NCBI RefSeq assembly: GCF_988242995.1
Contig: NZ_OZ547043.1
Strand: one strand, 5' to 3'
Length of the DNA stretch: 64,000 nucleotides
How positions within the stretch are numbered: the first letter of the stretch is position 1; each line of letters starts with the position of its first letter. This document shows positions 13,945-62,716 of this stretch, piece by piece. The notes under the pieces were generated by a model, which saw nothing but the letters and a program-made list of their open reading frames with translations, ran no database searches and was not told the origin of the DNA. Made by a program: the position numbers and the translations under genes.

Positions 13945-14197
13945 CCGCATCTCCTGACTCAGCTAACAATAAAATTTTTGGCCTTTATAGGCGGTCCTGT
14001 TGGACAACGGCGAACAGTATAACCGAATCATTGTGCGATAACAGGTCTTGACAAAGGAATTTACGCAAACGATTACCTTCAGGCTGCGCAAGGCTTTGGA
14101 GAATAAAGAGCTTGCAACCGGAAACGGATTTCTTTTCAGGTTTGTGATGCAAATTTTTCACTTCATCACATTCTTTCTGAAAAACACCAAAGAACCA

Positions 14198-14245
14198 TTT
14201 ACATTGCAGGGCTATTTTTTATAAGATGCATTTGAGATACATCAA
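14198..14245 (+). promoter_or_regulatory. hmp promoter (-35 TTTACA, -10 TATAAG) with overlapping FNR-like box TTGAG-N4-ATCAA inside a longer NsrR-like palindrome
   Basis: Hexamers at 14198-14203 and 14220-14225 (16-bp spacer); TTGAGATACATCAA at 14232-14245 just upstream of the hmp SD. Confidence 0.6.
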
Positions 14246-14272
14246 TTAAGATGCAAAAAAAAGGAAGACCAT

Positions 14273-19594: not shown

Positions 19595-19778
19595 AACAAA
19601 GCCGGGAATTACCCGGCTTTGTTATGGAATAAGGCGGTGCCTAACTCGACGTTTCGCCCGATGGTTGATATAGCTACGCTGATATCAGAAGTTGGACGGC
19701 AGGCACCTTGTTGTGCGTCATTCGAATTTTATGTAGCACGTCCCGAAGGGGCTGACATAAGTCGGTGAATGAGCCACT
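19595..19778 (-). ncRNA. glmY: GlmY small RNA (about 184 nt)
   Basis: Transcript read from 19778 begins AGUGGCUCAUUCACCGACUUAUGUCAGCCCCUUCGGG and ends in terminator caaagccggg-taat-tcccggctttg plus U-run (19597-19621); no ORF. Confidence 0.8.
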
Positions 19779-26369: not shown

Positions 26370-27005
26370 CTATTCCAGTTGCTGGAGTTCACCGCGCGGG
26401 GTTACTCGCCAACGATGCTGACAGAAATAAAGCAGCGGGTTGTCCTGATTACTGTCGCTATAGCCACTGTACAACCGCAGTGGCGTGCCGATTTTACGCT
26501 CCAGTTGCGCGACCTTCTCATGCCCGAGGCAACGCATCGTCAATACCCAACCACCATAGCCACGCTGAATCTGACTGGCGATAAGATTAACCCGCGGCAG
26601 CCAGGGAGTATCGAAATAAACCGCTTCAACCAGCGGCTGCGGAGAGCCGGTAATCAACCAGATATCAGCATCGGAACTTAACAGGTAGGTGGTTAATCGC
26701 TCCTGAACCAGCGGAAAGGCGGTAACATTGTCACGAAACCAGCGTACGAAATCGGCCTGCAACGCCTGCAAACGCGCTTCATTGTGACCAAAAGTGCATC
26801 CCCACAGAAGCAGACTCATCGGCCAGCGTGCCGCACGGCCTTTTATCAATAACGCAATGGCTATGATCGGCAACAACGGCAGGACAAGCAACGCATTCAG
26901 CGGTTGGCGACGCAGTAAATAACGCAAAAAACTGCCGAACATATCCTGCTGATGCAATGTTCCATCTAAGTCAAAAAACACCACACGACGCTCGTGAGTT
27001 GCCAA
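26370..27005 (-). CDS. pgpC: phosphatidylglycerophosphatase C (HAD-like)
   Basis: 211-aa ORF with HAD motif I FFDLDGTL. Confidence 0.85.
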   Translation of the reverse strand: MATHERRVVFFDLDGTLHQQDMFGSFLRYLLRRQPLNALLVLPLLPIIAIALLIKGRAARWPMSLLLWGCTFGHNEARLQALQADFVRWFRDNVTAFPLVQERLTTYLLSSDADIWLITGSPQPLVEAVYFDTPWLPRVNLIASQIQRGYGGWVLTMRCLGHEKVAQLERKIGTPLRLYSGYSDSNQDNPLLYFCQHRWRVTPRGELQQLE

Positions 27006-27213
27006 ACCATACTCCTCTGGACTGAAACATCCTGATTAATTTTCGCTACTACATAGCCTAACAGATAGATCATCACTTTTCCGGCAACAATCGACCGCAT
27101 CATGGCTAACTGGAATTTTTAATTCATGGAAATTAGCGGCAATGGAATATAAAATTCACTCGCGTTTGTCTCATATTGCCTGTTGTCGCCACTATTTCAT
27201 CGCGAGGAAAGAT

Positions 27214-28081: not shown

Positions 28082-28378
<297 letters not shown>

Positions 28379-28522
28379 TATTCTACTCTGGATGTAGAGT
28401 GTTAATTATTTTATAGAGAAACCTTAACGCTATTATATTTATTTGATTGATGACATTGGCATAATCATTCACTAAGTTAATTTATATAGTATCTGCCCAG
28501 ACACTTATTTATAGTTATTAAA

Positions 28523-28552
28523 GGCGCGTCCGACTGGTTCACCGGACGCACC
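28523..28552 (-). terminator. putative terminator of the shoB mRNA
   Basis: ggcgcgtccg / cggacgcacc stem followed on the minus strand by a U-rich tract. Confidence 0.4.
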
Positions 28553-28571
28553 TTAAGTACGTTTCCTTGTG

Positions 28572-28652
28572 TTATAAGAACAGAAGGATCAGCTGTAAAA
28601 CAGCAATGATGATTTTGATAACCCGTTTAATCAGGTATCGGCAATCAGTCAT
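28572..28652 (-). CDS. shoB: 26-aa hydrophobic type I toxin peptide
   Basis: Minus-strand ORF ATG ACT GAT TGC CGA TAC CTG ATT AAA ... TAA = MTDCRYLIKRVIKIIIAVLQLILLFL; too short for the ORF track. Confidence 0.8.
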   Translation of the reverse strand: MTDCRYLIKRVIKIIIAVLQLILLFL

Positions 28653-28974
28653 TCGTTTTTCCTTAAACAAGGAATGCAGCCGTTCAGATTAGCCCTTACA
28701 TCACCCCAAAACTGAACGTGCGAGTTATTGGAATCGAGTGCTGCACTCCACATCAGAGCTTTGACGACACCACTCGTTTCAATGGGGGAATTCAGTGGCA
28801 TGGTGTAAAGCACAGCAAAATTGCCAATAACGAAACCGATTTTAATGTACTTATCAAAAAGCGGTCACGTTAATCTTTTCATCAATGTCGATTTCTTCGT
28901 AAAGGCTCGCGTTTTTTATGTCAGAGATTGCAAGTTGCTTGTACAGGTCAACTAAATTGATCCATAATCATTTC

Positions 28975-29055
28975 CGTTGGAATCGTGTGCTGCACAAAAT
29001 TAAAGTTGTAAAGTAAACCCCCTGTTCCTTACCAGTTCGGGGGTTTTACTTTTTA
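28975..29055 (+). ncRNA. ohsC: antisense small RNA repressing shoB (OhsC-like)
   Basis: Sigma70-like promoter (-35 TTGTAC 28939-28944, -10 CATAAT 28963-28968); 19-nt segment 28977-28995 matches 28728-28746 with one mismatch; terminator 29015-29055; ends inferred. Confidence 0.5.
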
Positions 29056-29072
29056 AAGAGAACGGTATTATT

Positions 29073-29453
29073 TTAACTTTCAATAATTACCGTGGCGCAA
29101 GCATAGTGGCGTTCATCTGCCAGCGTTACATGCATATTTACAACGCCGAGCTTTTCCGCCAGTTTTAATGCCTCGCCCCACAGTCGCAGCCGTGGCTTAC
29201 CAAGCTCATCGTTAAATACTTCAAACTGATTAAACGCCAGACCATTGCGGATCCCGGTGCCAAACGCTTTTGCTGCGGCTTCTTTTACGGCAAAGCGTTT
29301 CGCCAGAAAACGCACCGGCTGGTGGTGCGTTTTCCAGATTGCCCATTCGTTATCGCTTAATACGCGGCGTGCCAGACGCTCACCGGATCGGGCGATCACC
29401 GATTCAATGCGAGCGATCTCCACAATATCCGTACCTAAACCTAATATTGCCAT
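29073..29453 (-). CDS. acpS: holo-[acyl-carrier-protein] synthase
   Basis: 126-aa [20 protein letters not shown]...; start overlaps pdxJ stop by 1 nt. Confidence 0.93.
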
Positions 29454-30935: not shown

Positions 30936-32548
<1,613 letters not shown>

Positions 32549-32790
32549 TCAGCACACGAAACAGACCTGATATACATGGCTCTGCTAACTGCTTCGCTGC
32601 AGTTTCAGTTTACCGGTATATGGGGACCAACGCTGTTTCGTGTGCCGTGGCAACCTGGAGGTGCCAACCTTAAACTTCGGGGGAATATTCTATACACAAC
32701 GACGGGGGATGTCGTTAGCCACGGGAGATTTATCTCATAAATAATTCACGTTGTCGCCATAACGGCGACAACGTGAACGAAGATGGGCTA

Positions 32791-33780: not shown

Positions 33781-35580
<1,800 letters not shown>

Positions 35581-35777
35581 AAAGTATGATTATTGTGCCT
35601 TAATGCCCGGTTAACCAGGCTTTTAGAAGTCGCTGTTCTGAGCTTAACGTCTGTATTAATAGAAACGCCGCATTCTACACTACAACATTGAGGCGAGGAA
35701 ATGTTCATACCGTATGGATTGTGGTATCTGGAAACGTCCTCGCATTTGTTATGCAAAATGCAACAAAGCCAGTGAAA

Positions 35778-36257
35778 TCACTGGCTCGCGTCTTCCGAAG
35801 ATGTTTCAAATCGCACAAGGCCAGGCGGCAATGCCACGCTTAAGATGATCGGTTGCCATTCAGACCGGGCAGCAAACTTTCGAGAGCAGCCACGTGCAAT
35901 CAGGAATCCACCAACGCCACCGAGAATCGCACCGCATAATGCTGCAATATCTGAAGCAAAGAGTAGCTGAAATAGTGAAGCGATGAGGAATAATCCCACC
36001 AGCGGCGACATATAAACCAGTAATGCGGAGCTAAGCAGGCTGCCTTCGGCGATTCCTAATTCTACTTTTTGCCCCGGCACTAACGGCTCATCACAGGGTA
36101 CGACAATGGTATGCGTGGTTTGCGGGCCAAGTTTATTCAACACGCGGCTACCGCAACCGGCACGTGAAGCGCAGCTGCTGCATGAGGCTTTAACATCACA
36201 ACTAACCAGCGCCTGCCCGTTTTCCCAGGAGACGACGGTAGCCCACTCTTTGATCAT
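35778..36257 (-). CDS. rseC: sigma-E regulatory protein RseC
   Basis: 159-aa ORF with Cys-rich N-terminus and hydrophobic C-terminus; start overlaps rseB stop. Confidence 0.9.
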   Translation of the reverse strand: MIKEWATVVSWENGQALVSCDVKASCSSCASRAGCGSRVLNKLGPQTTHTIVVPCDEPLVPGQKVELGIAEGSLLSSALLVYMSPLVGLFLIASLFQLLFASDIAALCGAILGGVGGFLIARGCSRKFAARSEWQPIILSVALPPGLVRFETSSEDASQ

Positions 36258-37210
36258 TGCGCTGCCCCGAACTTAATATTCTCGGCAATGCGTTTCGCCG
36301 TTTGCGGCGGCAGTTCACCGACAATGGTGATTTCGGCGTTATCACGTACGCTTGTACTGACGGTTCTGCGCCCGGTGCGCAACATCTGATCGGTGCTCGA
36401 TGGCGTAGCGCGGTTAACGTTTACCGAGAAGCTGAATAATCCGTCGGAATAGAGACGTGATTCGATAGGCATGTTGTCCATCGTCGGTAGCGGACGTCGA
36501 CTACTGGAAACTTCGCTAAAACCCTGTGGCAACCAGGTTGGCGTCCAGCTGAATTTAGCTTTTTCACCTACAGGAACAGAAAGCAACGGCGGCAAATTTG
36601 CCTTCGCCAGCGTCTGCATACTGCTGCTGATATCCTGATTGACATTAAAAGCAATCACGCGAAATTGTTCCAGCGTTTCACCATCGCGATCAAGGAGATC
36701 AACCCGCATCGGTAATTTCGATTCGGTGTCCATCCACACGATGTAGCTGTAGCGTGTACCATCTCGGGCAACCACACGAATGACTTCGCAAAGACGATCA
36801 GCAATACGCGTGCGCCCGACGGAGATAAAGTCGTAGTAAGGAGAAAGGCGTTTGAAATCGGTATAGATGAGCGATGGTAGAGAATCAACAATGTAATCGC
36901 CATTAAGCGTGAACGGTTCAAGTCCCGGTTCAAAATAGCTGATTTCATTGCCGCGCTGTACCACTTCCCGGCGCGGGCCATCCATTTGCAACAATTGTGC
37001 AAGAGGACGGTTATCGAGGCGTGCATGTCGATAACGCAGAGACTCAACACCCTGTTTATTGATGCTGATGAATGACAGCTCGTAATTCAGTGACTGACTG
37101 GCCAGGTTCATCTGCTGTAATAACGCCCCGGACGCGGGAGTGGCCGAGGCGTTAGCAGAGAATAACAGGCTACCTGTCACTAATGACATGGCAAACCAAA
37201 GTTGCTTCAT
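36254..37210 (-). CDS. rseB: periplasmic regulator of sigma-E, RseB
   Basis: 318-aa ORF with signal peptide; start overlaps rseA stop by 1 nt. Confidence 0.92.
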   Translation of the reverse strand: MKQLWFAMSLVTGSLLFSANASATPASGALLQQMNLASQSLNYELSFISINKQGVESLRYRHARLDNRPLAQLLQMDGPRREVVQRGNEISYFEPGLEPFTLNGDYIVDSLPSLIYTDFKRLSPYYDFISVGRTRIADRLCEVIRVVARDGTRYSYIVWMDTESKLPMRVDLLDRDGETLEQFRVIAFNVNQDISSSMQTLAKANLPPLLSVPVGEKAKFSWTPTWLPQGFSEVSSSRRPLPTMDNMPIESRLYSDGLFSFSVNVNRATPSSTDQMLRTGRRTVSTSVRDNAEITIVGELPPQTAKRIAENIKFGAAQ

Positions 37211-44728: not shown

Positions 44729-44835
44729 GTGATGCCTCCCCGGCAAAATTATTTGATTTGTTCAGCCTGTCGCGGCCAATTGGTAAAACCATTGTTGCTT
44801 GAGTGTATATATACTCCTCAAACACCCTTGAATCT

Positions 44836-44902
44836 TTGATTTAAATCAATAAAAACCATACATCAAGTATGGTCGCAAATGGATTTTATTGTTTTACATC
44901 AA
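44836..44902 (-). promoter_or_regulatory. two FNR-type boxes upstream of grcA
   Basis: TTGATTTAAATCAA at 44836-44849 (perfect TTGAT-N4-ATCAA) and TTGTTTTACATCAA at 44889-44902, centres 53 bp apart. Confidence 0.7.
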
Positions 44903-45032
44903 CTTATACAGGTGTGAAATTTTACCAATTTACATTTTTTTGCACTCGTTTAAGTCTAAATAATGAGCATGATTTTGTTCTGTAGAAAGAAGCAGTTAAG
45001 CTAGGCGGATTGAAGATTCGCGGGAGAGCGAG

Positions 45033-54557: not shown

Positions 54558-54677
54558 ATGCCTGGCAGTTCCCTACTCTCGCATGGGGAGACCCCACACT
54601 ACCATCGGCGCTACGGCGTTTCACTTCTGAGTTCGGCATGGGGTCAGGTGGGACCACCGCGCTAAGGCCGCCAGGCA
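54558..54677 (-). rRNA. rrfG: 5S ribosomal RNA
   Basis: 120 nt; reverse complement reads UGCCUGGCGGCC...CUGCCAGGCAU. Confidence 0.93.
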
Positions 54678-54770
54678 AATTCTGTTTTATTAACCCGCTT
54701 GTCGCCGGTTAATTTAATCTGTATCAGGCTGAAAATCTTCTCTCATCCGCCAAAACATCTTCGGCGTTGT

Positions 54771-57675
<2,905 letters not shown>

Positions 57676-57868
57676 TCACAACCCGAAGATGTTTCTTTCG
57701 ATTCATCATCGTGTTGCGAAAATTTGAGAGACTCACGAACAACTTTCGTTGTTCAGTGTTTCAATTTTCAGCTTGATCCAGATTTTTAAAGAGCAAATAT
57801 CTCAAACATCACCCGAAGATGAGTTTTGAGATATTAAGGCAGGTGACTTTCACTCACAAACCAGCAAG

Positions 57869-57944
57869 TGGCGTCCCCTAGGGGATTCGAACCCCTGTTA
57901 CCGCCGTGAAAGGGCGGTGTCCTGGGCCTCTAGACGAAGGGGAC
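57869..57944 (-). tRNA. gltW: tRNA-Glu (UUC anticodon) in the 16S-23S spacer
   Basis: 76-nt reverse complement GTCCCCTTCGTCTAGAGGCCCAGGACACCGCCCTTTCACGGCGGTAACAGGGGTTCGAATCCCCTAGGGGACGCCA. Confidence 0.93.
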
Positions 57945-58029
57945 GTGTCAGTCTGCTTCGCAAGACGCCTTGCTTTTCACTTTCTATCAGACAATCTGTG
58001 TGAGCACTTCAAAGAACGCTTCTTTAAGG

Positions 58030-59571
<1,542 letters not shown>

Positions 59572-60013: not shown

Positions 60014-62587
60014 TTACTGGACGGCGACAATCCGGTCTTCATTAACTTCCAGGCGAATAACTTTACCCGGAACCAATTCACCAGACAGTATTTGCTGTGC
60101 CAGCGGGTTTTCGATCTGCTGCTGGATAGCACGTTTCAGAGGACGTGCACCATAGACCGGATCGTAACCGTTCTCGCTCAGCAGTTTCAGCGCCTCGTCA
60201 GAAATGTGGATTTCATAACCACGTTCTTCCAGACGTTTGTACAGACGTTTCAACTGAATCTGCGCAATCGACGCAATGTGCTGTTCACCCAGCGGATGGA
60301 AGACCACCACTTCATCGATACGGTTAATGAATTCCGGACGGAAGTTATGGCTTACCACACCGAGCACCAGCTCTTTCATGTGCGCATAATCCAGTTCACC
60401 GAAGCGTTCCTGAATCAAATCGGAACCGAGGTTAGAGGTCATAATGACAACCGTATTACGGAAGTCGACCGTTCTCCCCTGCCCGTCAGTCAGACGCCCA
60501 TCATCCAGTACCTGCAACAGAATGTTGAAGACATCCGGATGCGCTTTTTCCACTTCATCCAGCAGGATGACGGAATACGGACGACGACGCACCGCTTCGG
60601 TCAGGTAGCCACCTTCTTCATAACCGACATATCCCGGAGGCGCACCAACCAGACGAGACACCGAGTGTTTCTCCATAAACTCGGACATATCGATACGGAC
60701 CATCGCCTCGTCGCTATCAAACATAAAGTTCGCCAGCGCCTTACAAAGCTCAGTTTTCCCCACACCCGTTGGGCCGAGGAACAGGAATGAACCAATCGGG
60801 CGATTTGGATCCGCCAGCCCCGCACGGCTACGACGAATAGCGTTAGATACCGCATCAACCGCTTCGTTCTGACCAATAACGCGATGGTGCAGCTCTTGCT
60901 CCATACGCAGCAGTTTTTCGCGCTCGCTTTCCATCATGCGAGAAACCGGAATCCCCGTCCAACGCGCCAGCACTTCAGCAATTTCGGCATCGGTCACTTT
61001 ATTACGCAACAGACGCATAGTTTTGCCTTCGAGCTGCGTTGCGGCTTCCAGTTGCTTTTCCAGTTCCGGGATTTTGCCGTATTGCAGTTCAGACATCCGC
61101 GCCAGGTCACCCACACGGCGAGCCTGTTCAATAGCGATTTTCGCCTGTTCCAGTTCCGCTTTAATGGTCTGTGTACCAGAAAGCGATGCTTTCTCTGCTT
61201 TCCACTCTTCTTCTAACTCGGAGTACTGACGTTCTTTGTCGCTCAGTTCTTCGTTGAGCATATCCAGGCGTTTTTTACTGGCTTCATCAGACTCTTTCAT
61301 TAACGCCTGTTGTTCCAGTTTAAGCTGGATGATACGACGATCGAGTCGGTCGAGTTCTTCTGGTTTTGAGTCGATCTGCATACGAATGCTGGATGCTGCT
61401 TCATCGATCAGGTCGATGGCTTTATCCGGCAGCTGACGGTCAGCAATGTAGCGATGAGACAACGTCGCCGCTGCAACAATTGCCGGGTCAGTAATTTGCA
61501 CATGGTGGTGCAATTCGTAACGTTCTTTCAGGCCACGCAGAATCGCAATGGTATCTTCAACAGAAGGCTCGGCAACAAACACTTTCTGGAAACGACGTTC
61601 CAGCGCAGCATCTTTTTCGATGTACTGGCGATATTCGTCAAGCGTCGTGGCACCTACGCAGTGCAATTCACCACGCGCCAGCGCCGGTTTCAGCATGTTT
61701 CCGGCGTCCATTGCGCCATCGGCTTTACCCGCGCCGACCATGGTATGTAATTCGTCGATAAACAGGATGACGTTGCCTTCCTGTTTGGCAAGATCGTTAA
61801 GCACGCCTTTTAAACGTTCTTCAAACTCACCGCGATATTTCGCCCCAGCCACCAGCGCGCCCATATCCAGCGCCAGTACGCGGCGGCCTTTCAACCCTTC
61901 CGGCACTTCGCCGTTGATAATACGCTGCGCCAGACCTTCAACGATGGCAGTTTTACCGACGCCGGGTTCACCAATCAGTACTGGGTTATTTTTAGTACGA
62001 CGTTGCAGCACCTGAATGGTACGGCGAATTTCTTCATCACGACCAATCACCGGATCGAGTTTGCCCTGTTCGGCTCGTTCGGTAAGGTCGATGGTATATT
62101 TTTTCAAAGCCTGACGTTGGTCTTCAGCACCTTGATCGTTCACGCTTTCACCTCCACGCATTTGTTCAATCGCTTGAGTAATGTTGGCGGTGGTCGCCCC
62201 TGCTGCTTTCAGGATGTCGGCCAGCGTGCCGCGAGACTCAAGTGCCGCCAGAACGAACAGTTCTGACGAGATAAAGTTATCACCACGTTTTTGCGCCAGC
62301 TTGTCGCAAAGATTAAGAACGCGCACCAGATCCTGTGATGGCTGGACATCACCACCAGTACCTTCAACCTGCGGTAAACGATTTAATGCCTGATTGATAT
62401 CTGTGCGCAACTGGCCAGCATTTATGCCAGCGGATGTTAATAAAGGACTAACCGAACCCCCTTCCTGATTCAGCAGGGCGCTCATTAAATGAAGTGGTTC
62501 GATGAATTGGTTGTCGTGCCCGAGTGCAAGTGATTGGGCATCGGCAAGAGCAAGCTGGAATTTATTAGTAAGACGATCCAGACGCAT
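60014..62587 (-). CDS. clpB: AAA+ disaggregase chaperone ClpB
   Basis: Start at [11 protein letters not shown] (857 aa); two nucleotide-binding domains (GEPGVGKT and GPTGVGKT) with coiled-coil middle domain. Confidence 0.93.
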
Positions 62588-62626
62588 AACTCCTCCCATA
62601 ACGGATCAAAGTTGCTACTGGAGATT

Positions 62627-62654
62627 AAATGAGGTCATCCCTCAATTATTCAAG
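62627..62654 (-). promoter_or_regulatory. sigma32 (heat-shock) type promoter of clpB
   Basis: Minus-strand CCTTGAA-N14-CCTCATTTAA resembles the sigma32 consensus, about 35-60 nt upstream of the clpB ATG. Confidence 0.55.
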
Positions 62655-62716
62655 GTTATTGACCAGATTAATGTGAAAAGAAAATCACGCGTACCGGATC
62701 GTCTTGATTCTTTAGG

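What the first reader, a model, noticed from the sequence alone, without database searches (positions are those of the whole stretch)
28380..29072. AT-rich composition of the yfhL-acpS gap
By eye this segment is markedly more AT-rich than the flanking genes, with long A/T runs at 28380-28520 and 28840-28960. That is consistent with a small horizontally acquired or H-NS-silenced islet carrying the toxin pair. I have not computed GC content.
Basis: inference. Interest (0 to 1): 0.3.

Follow-up and report, generated by a model that had tools for sequence, protein, structure and literature searches.

The report
AT-rich shoB–ohsC toxin–antitoxin islet
The AT-rich 694-bp stretch between yfhL and acpS is the already known E. 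coli shoB–ohsC small-toxin/antisense-RNA module, which was inserted in the Escherichia lineage at a spot where the two flanking genes overlap in other enteric bacteria, so the finding is real but ordinary.

Summary
Window 28379-29072 (694 bp) has 38.2% GC against 52.2% for the whole window. It is the lowest-GC 693-bp stretch in the 64 kb, with A/T runs of 8 bases or more about five times denser than average. Two sub-blocks drive this: 28379-28513 (27% GC) and 28833-28975 (35% GC). Judged as intergenic DNA, the GC content is only the fourth lowest of 38 spacers. Its length and position are the unusual features.

The gap holds the known type I toxin–antitoxin pair shoB (26 aa, minus strand) and ohsC (Rfam RF02495, 93.9 bits).

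In 57 of 78 other Enterobacterales species sampled, the yfhL and acpS stop codons overlap by 4 nt. The other 21 species have 12-139 bp inserts, mostly GC-rich. Only E. coli and E. albertii carry the roughly 694-bp AT-rich insert, which is flanked by a TTTAA duplication. A lineage-specific islet is therefore supported.

No donor was found, and there is no copy in phages, plasmids or elsewhere in E. coli. H-NS silencing is untested.

The islet is hypervariable within E. coli. The 19-nt OhsC/shoB pairing block exists in two co-varying versions. The version in this window occurs in about 31% of 5,426 genomes.

The parts
28374..28378 (.). Left copy of the TTTAA duplication; it includes the yfhL stop codon TAA (28376-28378).
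   Evidence: The sequence was read directly. The ancestral junction in relatives is GATAAAATTTAACTTTCGAT, with a single TTTAA.
28379..28513 (.). Block A: an AT-rich spacer (27% GC) lying downstream of both yfhL and the shoB terminator, with no transcript mapped to it here. It holds the longest A/T runs and is the most variable part of the islet. Function is unknown.
   Evidence: GC and A/T runs come. Between 32% and 68% of columns vary among 12 alleles. There is no Rfam hit. The block lies outside the shoB mRNA as mapped from K-12 coordinates.
28514..28832 (-). shoB mRNA (formerly ryfB), 319 nt, with a 180-nt 5'UTR.
   Evidence: K-12 coordinates 2700059-2700377 (PMC8313858 supplement 1) were mapped through alignment A1. 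The start lies 6-7 nt downstream of the -10 box.
28516..28559 (-). shoB terminator hairpin (GCGTCCGG...CGGACGC followed by CCTTTAATA).
   Evidence: Inverted repeat I1, 17-nt arms, 82% complementary. The function is inferred.
28572..28652 (-). shoB coding sequence, encoding the 26-aa hydrophobic toxin MTDCRYLIKRVIKIIIAVLQLILLFL. The ribosome-binding site AAGGAA is at 28659-28664.
   Evidence: Found in the ORF list. The same ORF is annotated as shoB (WP_000128776.1) in RefSeq genomes, and its translation is identical to the window's. The RBS matches the site reported as 100% conserved in PMC11264685.
28728..28746 (-). OhsC target site in the shoB 5'UTR, 76-94 nt upstream of the AUG. The plus-strand sequence is TTGGAATCGAGTGCTGCAC.
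   Evidence: Direct repeat D1 with the 5' end of ohsC. RNAduplex gives -36.8 kcal/mol for the cognate pair. The 19-nt pairing through the 5' end is reported in PMC3919570.
28649..28801 (-). Hypothetical 50-codon upstream ORF in the shoB leader. Its TGA stop overlaps the shoB ATG (ATGA).
   Evidence: The frame is open in 12 of 12 sampled alleles. No Shine-Dalgarno sequence is evident, and the substitutions are mostly non-synonymous. Translation is not shown.
28839..28868 (-). shoB promoter: -35 GTGACC, 18-nt spacer, -10 TAAAAT.
   Evidence: Promoter scan. The same hexamers are reported as 99.6-99.9% conserved in PMC11264685.
28939..28968 (+). ohsC promoter: -35 TTGTAC (the minority variant; K-12 has TTGTAA) and -10 CATAAT.
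   Evidence: PMC11264685 Table 2 gives TTGTAC in 33.1% of strains.
28976..29052 (+). ohsC antitoxin sRNA, 77 nt. Its 5' seed at 28977-28995 is TTGGAATCGTGTGCTGCAC.
   Evidence: Rfam RF02495 scores 93.9 bits against a gathering score of 50, E 1.7e-15, full-length match.
29010..29052 (.). OhsC terminator hairpin. It is nearly palindromic and lies 20 nt beyond the acpS stop codon, so it probably also terminates acpS transcription.
   Evidence: Inverted repeat I3. A weak reverse-strand Rfam match reflects the palindrome. The same near-palindrome is noted in PMC11264685. The role in acpS termination is inferred.
29072..29076 (.). Right copy of the TTTAA duplication; it includes the acpS stop codon (TTA on the plus strand, 29073-29075).

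Best explanation
The gap is the chromosomal shoB–ohsC type I toxin–antitoxin module. It is a single 693-694-bp piece of DNA that entered the ancestor of Escherichia exactly at the 4-nt overlap of the convergent yfhL and acpS stop codons. TTTAA was duplicated in the process, so both genes kept their ends.

On the minus strand, a sigma-70 promoter drives a 319-nt shoB mRNA. This has a 180-nt leader, an AAGGAA ribosome-binding site and a 26-codon ORF for a hydrophobic membrane toxin. On the plus strand, and divergently, a second promoter drives the 77-nt OhsC RNA. The first 19 nt of OhsC pair with the shoB leader 76-94 nt upstream of the AUG and, according to the literature, block toxin synthesis.

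The low GC content has three sources. The first is a 135-bp spacer with no mapped transcript (27% GC). The second is the divergent promoter region (35% GC). The third is the Ile/Leu/Lys-rich toxin ORF (36% GC). The structured leader is 46% GC.

Shown here: the composition, the gene content, the insertion relative to other genera, and the co-variation of the pairing. Taken from the literature: toxicity and repression. Inferred: the insertion mechanism, a foreign origin, and any role for H-NS.
For: Composition.

Identity: the ShoB ORF is identical to the RefSeq-annotated shoB. OhsC matches Rfam at 93.9 bits. The promoter hexamers and RBS equal those catalogued in PMC11264685. The 19-nt direct repeat corresponds to the published 19-nt complementarity.

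Insertion: 57 of 78 non-E. coli species from the three families Enterobacteriaceae, Erwiniaceae and Pectobacteriaceae have a 4-nt overlap. The other 21 have 12-139 bp inserts, mostly GC-rich. Gap-like DNA occurs only in E. coli and E. albertii. The E. albertii islet is 693 bp and 39% GC. Table 1 of PMC2887945 lists one ShoB in E. fergusonii and none in Salmonella, Citrobacter or Klebsiella. The TTTAA duplication is seen.

Functional constraint: the islet is present in 5,425 of 5,426 genomes, with length fixed at 693-695 bp. The shoB ORF and leader are nearly invariant, while the spacer varies at 32-68% of columns. Six of the 19 intermolecular base pairs change on both sides across five allele types, and 97.9% of cells stay paired, against 25-50% in slid controls. 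Cognate duplexes have free energies of -36.8 and -43.4 kcal/mol, against -23.6 and -25.4 for non-cognate pairs.
Against: No donor sequence, mobility gene, terminal inverted repeat or second copy was found, so a foreign origin rests only on composition and distribution. The GC content is within the range of native intergenic DNA. The species sample was capped at 80 loci. It did not include E. fergusonii, S. enterica or S. bongori. The co-variation could arise from gene conversion between the two direct repeats rather than from independent compensatory mutations.
Confidence: 0.9

Rival explanations
1. The AT-richness is simply what native non-coding regulatory DNA looks like (promoters, terminator tails, a small hydrophobic ORF) and carries no signal of foreign origin.
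For: The gap is the fourth lowest of 38 intergenic regions, and three ordinary spacers are lower (32-36%). Two ordinary promoter regions have patches as AT-rich as block A. The transcribed shoB leader is 46% GC. [quoted passage not shown]
Against: The DNA is absent from all 78 other sampled species, in most of which the two genes overlap. The 694 bp must therefore have been inserted as a block and cannot be an old native spacer. This rival explains the composition but not the presence of the DNA.
Confidence: 0.35
2. The islet is xenogeneic DNA that is bound and silenced by H-NS, which is why it is tolerated.
For: The islet has 27% and 35% GC blocks and is lineage-restricted. Near-matches to the H-NS nucleation motif TCGATAAATT (2 mismatches) are about 3.7 times denser than in the window as a whole, which is expected from AT content alone. 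ohsC is listed as strongly up in delta-hns in PMC8313858 supplement 2, but flagged as low-count.
Against: No H-NS motif is listed among the occupancy peaks at ohsC in that same table. No motif match with one mismatch or fewer occurs in the gap. Published transcript coordinates exist for both RNAs in K-12. Both promoters are conserved in over 99% of strains, and CpxR regulates the pair. None of this fits a permanently silent locus. No ChIP data could be reached.
Confidence: 0.2
3. The islet is the remnant of a transposable or miniature mobile element that carried the toxin pair as cargo.
For: An exact 5-bp TTTAA duplication flanks the insert. This is the simplest way for both overlapping stop codons to survive an insertion. 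AT-rich DNA at this site also attracts IS1 and IS5-family insertions in some strains.
Against: There are no terminal inverted repeats and no transposase. No other copy exists in 5,426 E. coli genomes, even at blastn sensitivity. There are no hits in phages or plasmids. The duplication could instead have been retained by selection for the two stop codons.
Confidence: 0.15
4. The long gap is ancestral and was deleted in the other genera.
For: None specific. Some relatives have short inserts at the junction.
Against: Fifty-seven species in three families share the identical 4-nt stop overlap. The short inserts elsewhere are mostly GC-rich (44-83% GC), several are REP-like, and none is related to the islet. 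Many independent precise deletions would be needed.
Confidence: 0.02

Closest known systems
shoB–ohsC of E. coli K-12 (Kawano 2005 and Fozo 2008, as cited in PMC2887945, PMC3919570 and PMC11264685)
   Same: The locus sits between the same genes, yfhL and acpS. The 26-aa ShoB is identical. The sRNA is 77 nt with the same terminator, the promoter -10 boxes and RBS are the same, and the length is the same at 694 bp.
   Different: The gap is only 90.5% identical to the K-12 gap, while the neighbouring yfhH is 99.5% identical. The 9-nt core of the pairing block is GGAATCG(A/T)G here and AGGGTGCAT in K-12, and the change is present in both the sRNA and its target. The duplex pairs 18 of 19 positions with one U·U mismatch, against 19 of 19 in K-12. 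The ohsC -35 box is TTGTAC rather than TTGTAA, in the region the literature calls CpxR box CB2.
[quoted passage not shown]
   Same: In each, a small hydrophobic toxin has a long 5'UTR. A divergently transcribed, non-overlapping sRNA pairs through its 5' end with 18-21 nt of that UTR (PMC4147584, PMC3919570).
   Different: There is no sequence similarity, and the chromosomal sites and regulators differ (LexA for tisB and dinQ; CpxR is reported for shoB/ohsC). The repression mechanism for shoB (standby site or coupled ORF) has not been established.
hok/mok/sok
   Same: The shoB leader contains an upstream open frame whose stop overlaps the toxin start codon (ATGA). This resembles the mok-hok translational coupling, with the antisense RNA acting upstream of the toxin RBS.
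   Different: Translation of the shoB leader ORF is not shown, and no Shine-Dalgarno sequence is evident. OhsC is trans-encoded and pairs inside the frame, not at its start. ShoB is not a Hok homologue.

Membership tests
ShoB/OhsC type I toxin–antitoxin system | A 26-aa hydrophobic ShoB ORF | tested here: met
   The ORF at 28572-28652 (-) translates to MTDCRYLIKRVIKIIIAVLQLILLFL. The collinear ORF is annotated shoB (WP_000128776.1) in K-12 W3110 and O169:H41 and gives the same translation.
ShoB/OhsC type I toxin–antitoxin system | An OhsC sRNA matching the curated covariance model | tested here: met
   RF02495 scores 93.9 bits against a gathering score of 50, over model positions 1-77 of 77, at 28976-29052 (+).
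ShoB/OhsC type I toxin–antitoxin system | Divergent, non-overlapping genes with about 19 nt of complementarity between the OhsC 5' end and the shoB 5'UTR | tested here: met
   A 19-nt direct repeat at 28728-28746 and 28977-28995 has one mismatch. Duplex free energy is -36.8 kcal/mol. The published figure is 19 nt.
ShoB/OhsC type I toxin–antitoxin system | Chromosomal position between yfhL and acpS, with the catalogued promoters and RBS | tested here: met
ShoB/OhsC type I toxin–antitoxin system | Toxicity on overproduction, and repression by OhsC | not testable with these tools
   Known only from the literature for the K-12 allele. It has not been tested for the pairing variant in this window.
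H-NS-silenced horizontally acquired island | AT content well above the genome average | tested here: met
   38.2% GC against 52.2%; blocks of 27% and 35%.
H-NS-silenced horizontally acquired island | Restricted phylogenetic distribution (absent at the same site in related genera) | tested here: met
   Absent in 78 of 78 non-E. coli species with both genes on the locus; present in E. coli and E. albertii.
H-NS-silenced horizontally acquired island | Identifiable donor, or mobility hallmarks such as an integrase, tRNA site, or phage or plasmid homology | tested here: not met
   No hit in phages or plasmids by DNA or by ShoB protein. There is no integrase, tRNA or terminal inverted repeat in the gap. 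Only a TTTAA duplication is present.
H-NS-silenced horizontally acquired island | H-NS occupancy, and derepression in a delta-hns strain | tested here: inconclusive
   ohsC is marked '++ delta-hns*', where the asterisk flags a low read count, and no H-NS motif appears in the occupancy peaks. Motif near-matches are no more frequent than AT content predicts. ChIP tables were not available.
Insertion sequence / MITE | Terminal inverted repeats and multiple genomic copies | tested here: not met
   There are no terminal inverted repeats. The median is one place per genome and the maximum is two. In the sampled loci, IS elements interrupt the gap.

The most novel reading that the evidence does not exclude
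shoB–ohsC may exist in Escherichia as old, deeply diverged allelic classes with two mutually non-cross-reacting sRNA/target 'specificity types'. The GGAATCG type is in this window and in about 31% of E. coli, including O157:H7, E2348/69 and an ST131 strain. The AGGGTGC type is in K-12 and about 68% of E. coli, and E. albertii has a close variant. The classes would be shuffled between backgrounds by recombination and kept polymorphic by selection rather than drift. Three observations fit this reading. Within-species divergence in the islet reaches 16%, which exceeds the E. coli–E. albertii divergence of the flanking genes (about 7%). One E. coli haplogroup is 97% identical to E. albertii across shoB–ohsC. 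Strains with identical flanks carry different alleles.
Probability: 0.3. Interest if true: 0.5.

Novelty: already known. Interest (0 to 1): 0.27.

Why it matters
In itself the finding matters little. It re-identifies a textbook E. coli type I toxin–antitoxin locus by its base composition.

The follow-up adds three modest points. First, it gives a clean dating and anatomy of the acquisition: one insertion into overlapping stop codons, flanked by TTTAA, present in E. coli and E. albertii and absent from 78 other species. This makes the locus a tidy example of how a toxin–antitoxin pair becomes a fixed 'core' gene.

Second, it shows that AT-richness alone would not have distinguished this islet from native promoter regions. 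That is a caution against using by-eye composition as a signal of horizontal transfer.

Third, it bears on a point left open in PMC11264685, namely whether the highly variable shoB/OhsC pairing regions still pair. In 12 sampled loci and in linkage counts over 5,426 genomes, the two sides change together.

Tried and rejected
1. A search for a mobile-element source was negative. It used blastn-distant with the gap and tblastn with ShoB (E up to 10) against phages and plasmids. The only hits were four chromosome-sized records mislabelled as plasmids.

2. A search for paralogues in E. coli by blastn-distant found none.

ShoB is also too short for the search of protein representatives and the look-up of encoding contigs, so a wider protein-level distribution could not be computed.

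4. H-NS binding data could not be reached. The Kahramanoglou 2011 supplements are not held. The H-NS transposon-capture paper's supplements do not mention these genes. Literature searches for shoB or yfhL together with H-NS returned nothing relevant. The H-NS motif scan was uninformative.

5. Fozo 2008 (PMC2597788) is not held, and the Fozo 2010 supplements are not held.

6. The terminator consensus scan found none in the region because the loops exceed its limits. The hairpins were found by the repeat search instead.

7. The CpxR box consensus GTAAA-N5-GTAAA gave one site with a single mismatch, at 28805-28819, in both this window and K-12. The published CB1 and CB2 positions could not be verified from text alone.

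8. Terminal inverted repeats at the islet ends were looked for and not found.

9. The idea that the leader ORF is protein-coding under purifying selection has little support. The few substitutions are mostly non-synonymous.

Full report
**1. The observation**

The segment 28380-29072 is 38.2% GC, against 52.2% for the 64-kb window. Among all 693-bp windows (mean 52.1%, sd 3.5%) it is the minimum. Only 0.11% of positions are as low, and all of them overlap this gap.

28380-28520 is 26% GC and 28840-28960 is 35% GC. The stretch between them is 45%.

Runs of 8 or more A/T bases are 5.4 times denser in the gap than in the window overall (13 per kb against 2.4 per kb). The long runs of 9-14 nt are all in 28402-28513.

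I mapped RefSeq gene calls from a collinear genome onto the window. The 38 intergenic spacers range from 32% to 75% GC, pooled 44.3%, and this gap is the fourth lowest. Its 27% GC block is matched by patches in the glyA/hmpA and grcA/ung promoter regions.

As intergenic DNA, then, the composition is low but not exceptional. What stands out is a spacer of 694 bp, the longest in the window, lying between two convergent genes.

**2. What the gap contains**

The window is E. coli. The flanks are yfhH and yfhL on one side and acpS-pdxJ-recO-era on the other.

- **shoB.** The gap carries the 26-codon ORF MTDCRYLIKRVIKIIIAVLQLILLFL at 28572-28652 on the minus strand. RefSeq annotates this ORF as the type I toxin ShoB.
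- **ohsC.** A full-length match to the Rfam OhsC antitoxin model lies at 28976-29052 on the plus strand (93.9 bits, gathering score 50).
- **Promoters and RBS.** The promoter scan finds GTGACC-18-TAAAAT for shoB and TTGTAC/CATAAT for ohsC. These are exactly the hexamers catalogued across more than 2,000 strains in PMC11264685, as is the AAGGAA ribosome-binding site.
- **Transcripts.** Published K-12 transcript coordinates (PMC8313858 supplement) map the 319-nt shoB mRNA to 28514-28832. That gives a 180-nt leader.
- **Terminators.** Both transcripts end in hairpins, at 28516-28559 and 29010-29052. The second is nearly palindromic and lies 20 nt past the acpS stop, so it probably also serves acpS. 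This last point is an inference.
- **Pairing.** A 19-nt direct repeat (28728-28746 and 28977-28995, one mismatch) corresponds to the published 19-nt complementarity between the 5' end of OhsC and the shoB leader (PMC3919570).

By sub-part, GC is 27% for the 28379-28515 block, which is essentially the spacer with no mapped transcript. It is 36% for the shoB ORF, 46% for the leader, 35% for the divergent promoter region and 42% for ohsC.

**3. Is it an acquired islet?**

I used AcpS to fetch the locus from one genome per species (80 loci from Enterobacteriaceae, Erwiniaceae and Pectobacteriaceae). I then located yfhL and acpS in each.

- In 57 of the 78 non-E. coli species that have both genes on the locus, the two coding sequences overlap by 4 nt, with stop codons sharing TTAA, CTAG or similar.
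- The other 21 have inserts of 12-139 bp. These range from 44% to 83% GC, most are GC-rich, and several in Citrobacter, Salmonella arizonae and Klebsiella look like REP-type palindromes.
- Only E. coli has about 695 bp at 38% GC. Sensitive blastn and nhmmer find gap-like DNA only in the E. coli and E. albertii loci.

The E. albertii type-strain contig ended 57 nt into the gap. I therefore retrieved other contigs encoding its exact AcpS. Their flanks are 99.7-100% identical to the type strain and about 93% identical to the window. They carry a 693-bp, 39% GC islet with a 26-codon ShoB gene.

Table 1 of PMC2887945 lists one ShoB in E. fergusonii and none in Salmonella, Citrobacter or Klebsiella. 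The authors concluded that ShoB 'emerged later'.

The ancestral junction GATAAAATTTAACTTTCGAT has become GATAAAATTTAA|...694 bp...|TTTAACTTTC. TTTAA is present at both ends, so each gene keeps its stop. One insertion in the Escherichia ancestor is by far the most economical reading. The alternative of many precise deletions is not credible.

**4. Is it horizontal, and is it H-NS-silenced?**

The origin is unresolved. The gap and the ShoB peptide have no match in 50,697 phage records. In 72,556 plasmid records the only matches are four mislabelled chromosomes. There is no second copy in any of 5,426 complete E. coli genomes at blastn sensitivity. The islet has no terminal inverted repeats, integrase or tRNA.

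The islet is fixed. It is present in 5,425 of 5,426 genomes and is always chromosomal.

For H-NS I found only a data-mining table in which ohsC is '++' in delta-hns. That entry is flagged as low-count, and no H-NS motif appears in the local protein-occupancy peaks. Near-matches to the H-NS nucleation motif are no more frequent than the AT content predicts.

Both promoters are conserved in over 99% of strains. Published transcript coordinates exist for both RNAs, and the pair is reported to respond to CpxR. The locus is therefore not simply silent. I rate H-NS silencing as untested and not favoured.

**5. Variation within E. coli**

The gap is only 90.5% identical to the K-12 gap, whereas yfhH is 99.5% identical. 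Identity to the 5,425 genomes falls into bands: at least 95% in 1,716, 90-95% in 3,312 and 80-90% in 397.

Twelve sampled loci fall into four haplogroups that differ by up to 16%. Even so, all are 694-695 bp long. Variation is concentrated in three places: the AT-rich spacer, the promoter region together with the ohsC 5' end, and one block inside the otherwise invariant shoB leader.

That block is the OhsC target, and it changes together with OhsC:

| Allele | Target (plus strand) | OhsC seed |
|---|---|---|
| This window, O169:H41, O157:H7, E2348/69 | TTGGAATCGAGTGCTGCAC | TTGGAATCGTGTGCTGCAC |
| K-12 | TTGAGGGTGCATGCTGCAC | TTGAGGGTGCATGCTGCAC |
| A third group | K-12 target | OhsC with A11 changed to G (a G·U pair) |
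| E. albertii | G at position 11 | G at position 11 (a G-C pair) |

Counted on the five distinct duplexes, 6 of 19 pairs change on both sides and 97.9% of cells remain paired. Slid controls give 25-50%. Predicted cognate duplexes have free energies of -36.8 and -43.4 kcal/mol, against -23.6 and -25.4 for the swapped pairs.

Chimeric 49+49-nt queries give the linkage at population scale. 1,696 genomes have a window-type piece, and 1,689 of those have both pieces. 3,715 genomes have a K-12-type piece. The two sets sum to 5,411 of 5,426, and no swapped combination was seen among the sampled loci.

PMC11264685 explicitly left open whether these variable pairing regions still pair. In this sample they do. 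Gene conversion between the two direct repeats could produce the same pattern, so this is evidence that complementarity is maintained. It does not show independent compensatory mutations.

Divergence peaks sharply in the islet. One strain, KE47, is identical to the window from 29330 through about 30500 yet differs by 16% in the gap. One E. coli haplogroup is 97% identical to E. albertii over shoB–ohsC, although the flanking genes are about 93% identical between the species. This suggests old alleles shuffled by recombination. Selection is an inference.

**6. Comparison with what is known, and verdict**

Every testable defining feature of the ShoB/OhsC family is met: the ORF, the covariance model, the arrangement, the 19-nt pairing, the position and the promoters. 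Toxicity and repression rest on the literature for the K-12 allele.

The locus works like the other divergent type I pairs (tisB–istR-1, zorO–orzO, dinQ–agrB), in which a 5'-end seed pairs far upstream in a long leader.

As a 'horizontally acquired island', it meets the composition and distribution criteria but fails the donor and mobility criterion. The H-NS criteria are inconclusive.

The finding is therefore a real compositional feature that marks an already known element. It is unproven as horizontal transfer and untested as H-NS silencing. Interest is low. The co-varying specificity alleles are the only part a specialist might want to follow up.

Noticed in passing
window 28649-28801 (-): The shoB leader contains a 50-codon ATG-initiated frame (71 codons open) whose TGA stop overlaps the shoB ATG (ATGA), an arrangement like mok/hok. 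The frame is open in all 12 sampled alleles, and the OhsC target lies inside it. No Shine-Dalgarno sequence is evident, and the substitutions are mostly non-synonymous.
   Followed up: partly
L004 1-1901; L096 4550-6381: In E. coli MLI108K3 and in one E. albertii genome, a tyrosine integrase, a small HTH gene and an SNF2/DEAD helicase lie immediately upstream of yfhL, where yfhH lies in the window. The two loci align at 94.7% over 4.86 kb. This suggests an integrative element shared between the species next to the islet.
   Followed up: partly
L003 1873-3074; L092 189-886; L097 and L099 3625-4322: IS elements land in the gap. ISKpn26 (IS5 family) in SCPM-O-B-9504 and IS1 in EC96 remove shoB but leave ohsC, giving antitoxin-only strains. 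In E. albertii, IS1 sits between ohsC and shoB.
   Followed up: partly
window 28379-28513 versus L004 and L093: The AT-rich spacer is mosaic relative to the rest of the islet. K-12 and the window share it at 93% identity but differ by 14-19% in the promoter/ohsC part. The M haplogroup has a very different spacer but an E. albertii-like shoB–ohsC part. This implies recombination breakpoints near the shoB terminator.
   Followed up: partly
window 29073-29453 (acpS) and 26370-27005 (yfhb/pgpC): acpS is only 93.7% identical to K-12 and pgpC only 95.6%, whereas yfhH and recO are about 99% identical. Divergence is elevated in the acpS 3' half next to the islet.
   Followed up: no
L007, L010, L012-L014, L023, L045 (junction downstream of acpS): In several Citrobacter species, Salmonella arizonae and Klebsiella michiganensis, the yfhL/acpS junction holds 29-106 bp GC-rich palindromic inserts that resemble REP/BIME elements (for example GCCGGATAAGGCG...CGCCGCATCCGGC). 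Their composition is the opposite of the Escherichia islet's.
   Followed up: no
window 14126-14266 and 44784-45019: Two other patches have 137-bp GC of 30% or less. They lie in the glyA/hmpA and grcA/ung intergenic regions and are as AT-rich as the islet's spacer.
   Followed up: no
window 19631-19778 (-), 32464-32678 (-), 35462-36293 (+), 62568-62706 (-), 54560-59571 (-): Other Rfam matches at gathering score are GlmY, the rncO leader, AsrC (antisense to rseC), RyfD next to clpB, and a complete rrn operon with tRNA-Glu.
   Followed up: no
window 27142-27213: The mechanical ORF list extends yfhH 24 codons upstream of the RefSeq start. The ORF starts at 27142, and the annotated start maps to 27214. 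This is probably just an in-frame upstream ATG.
   Followed up: no
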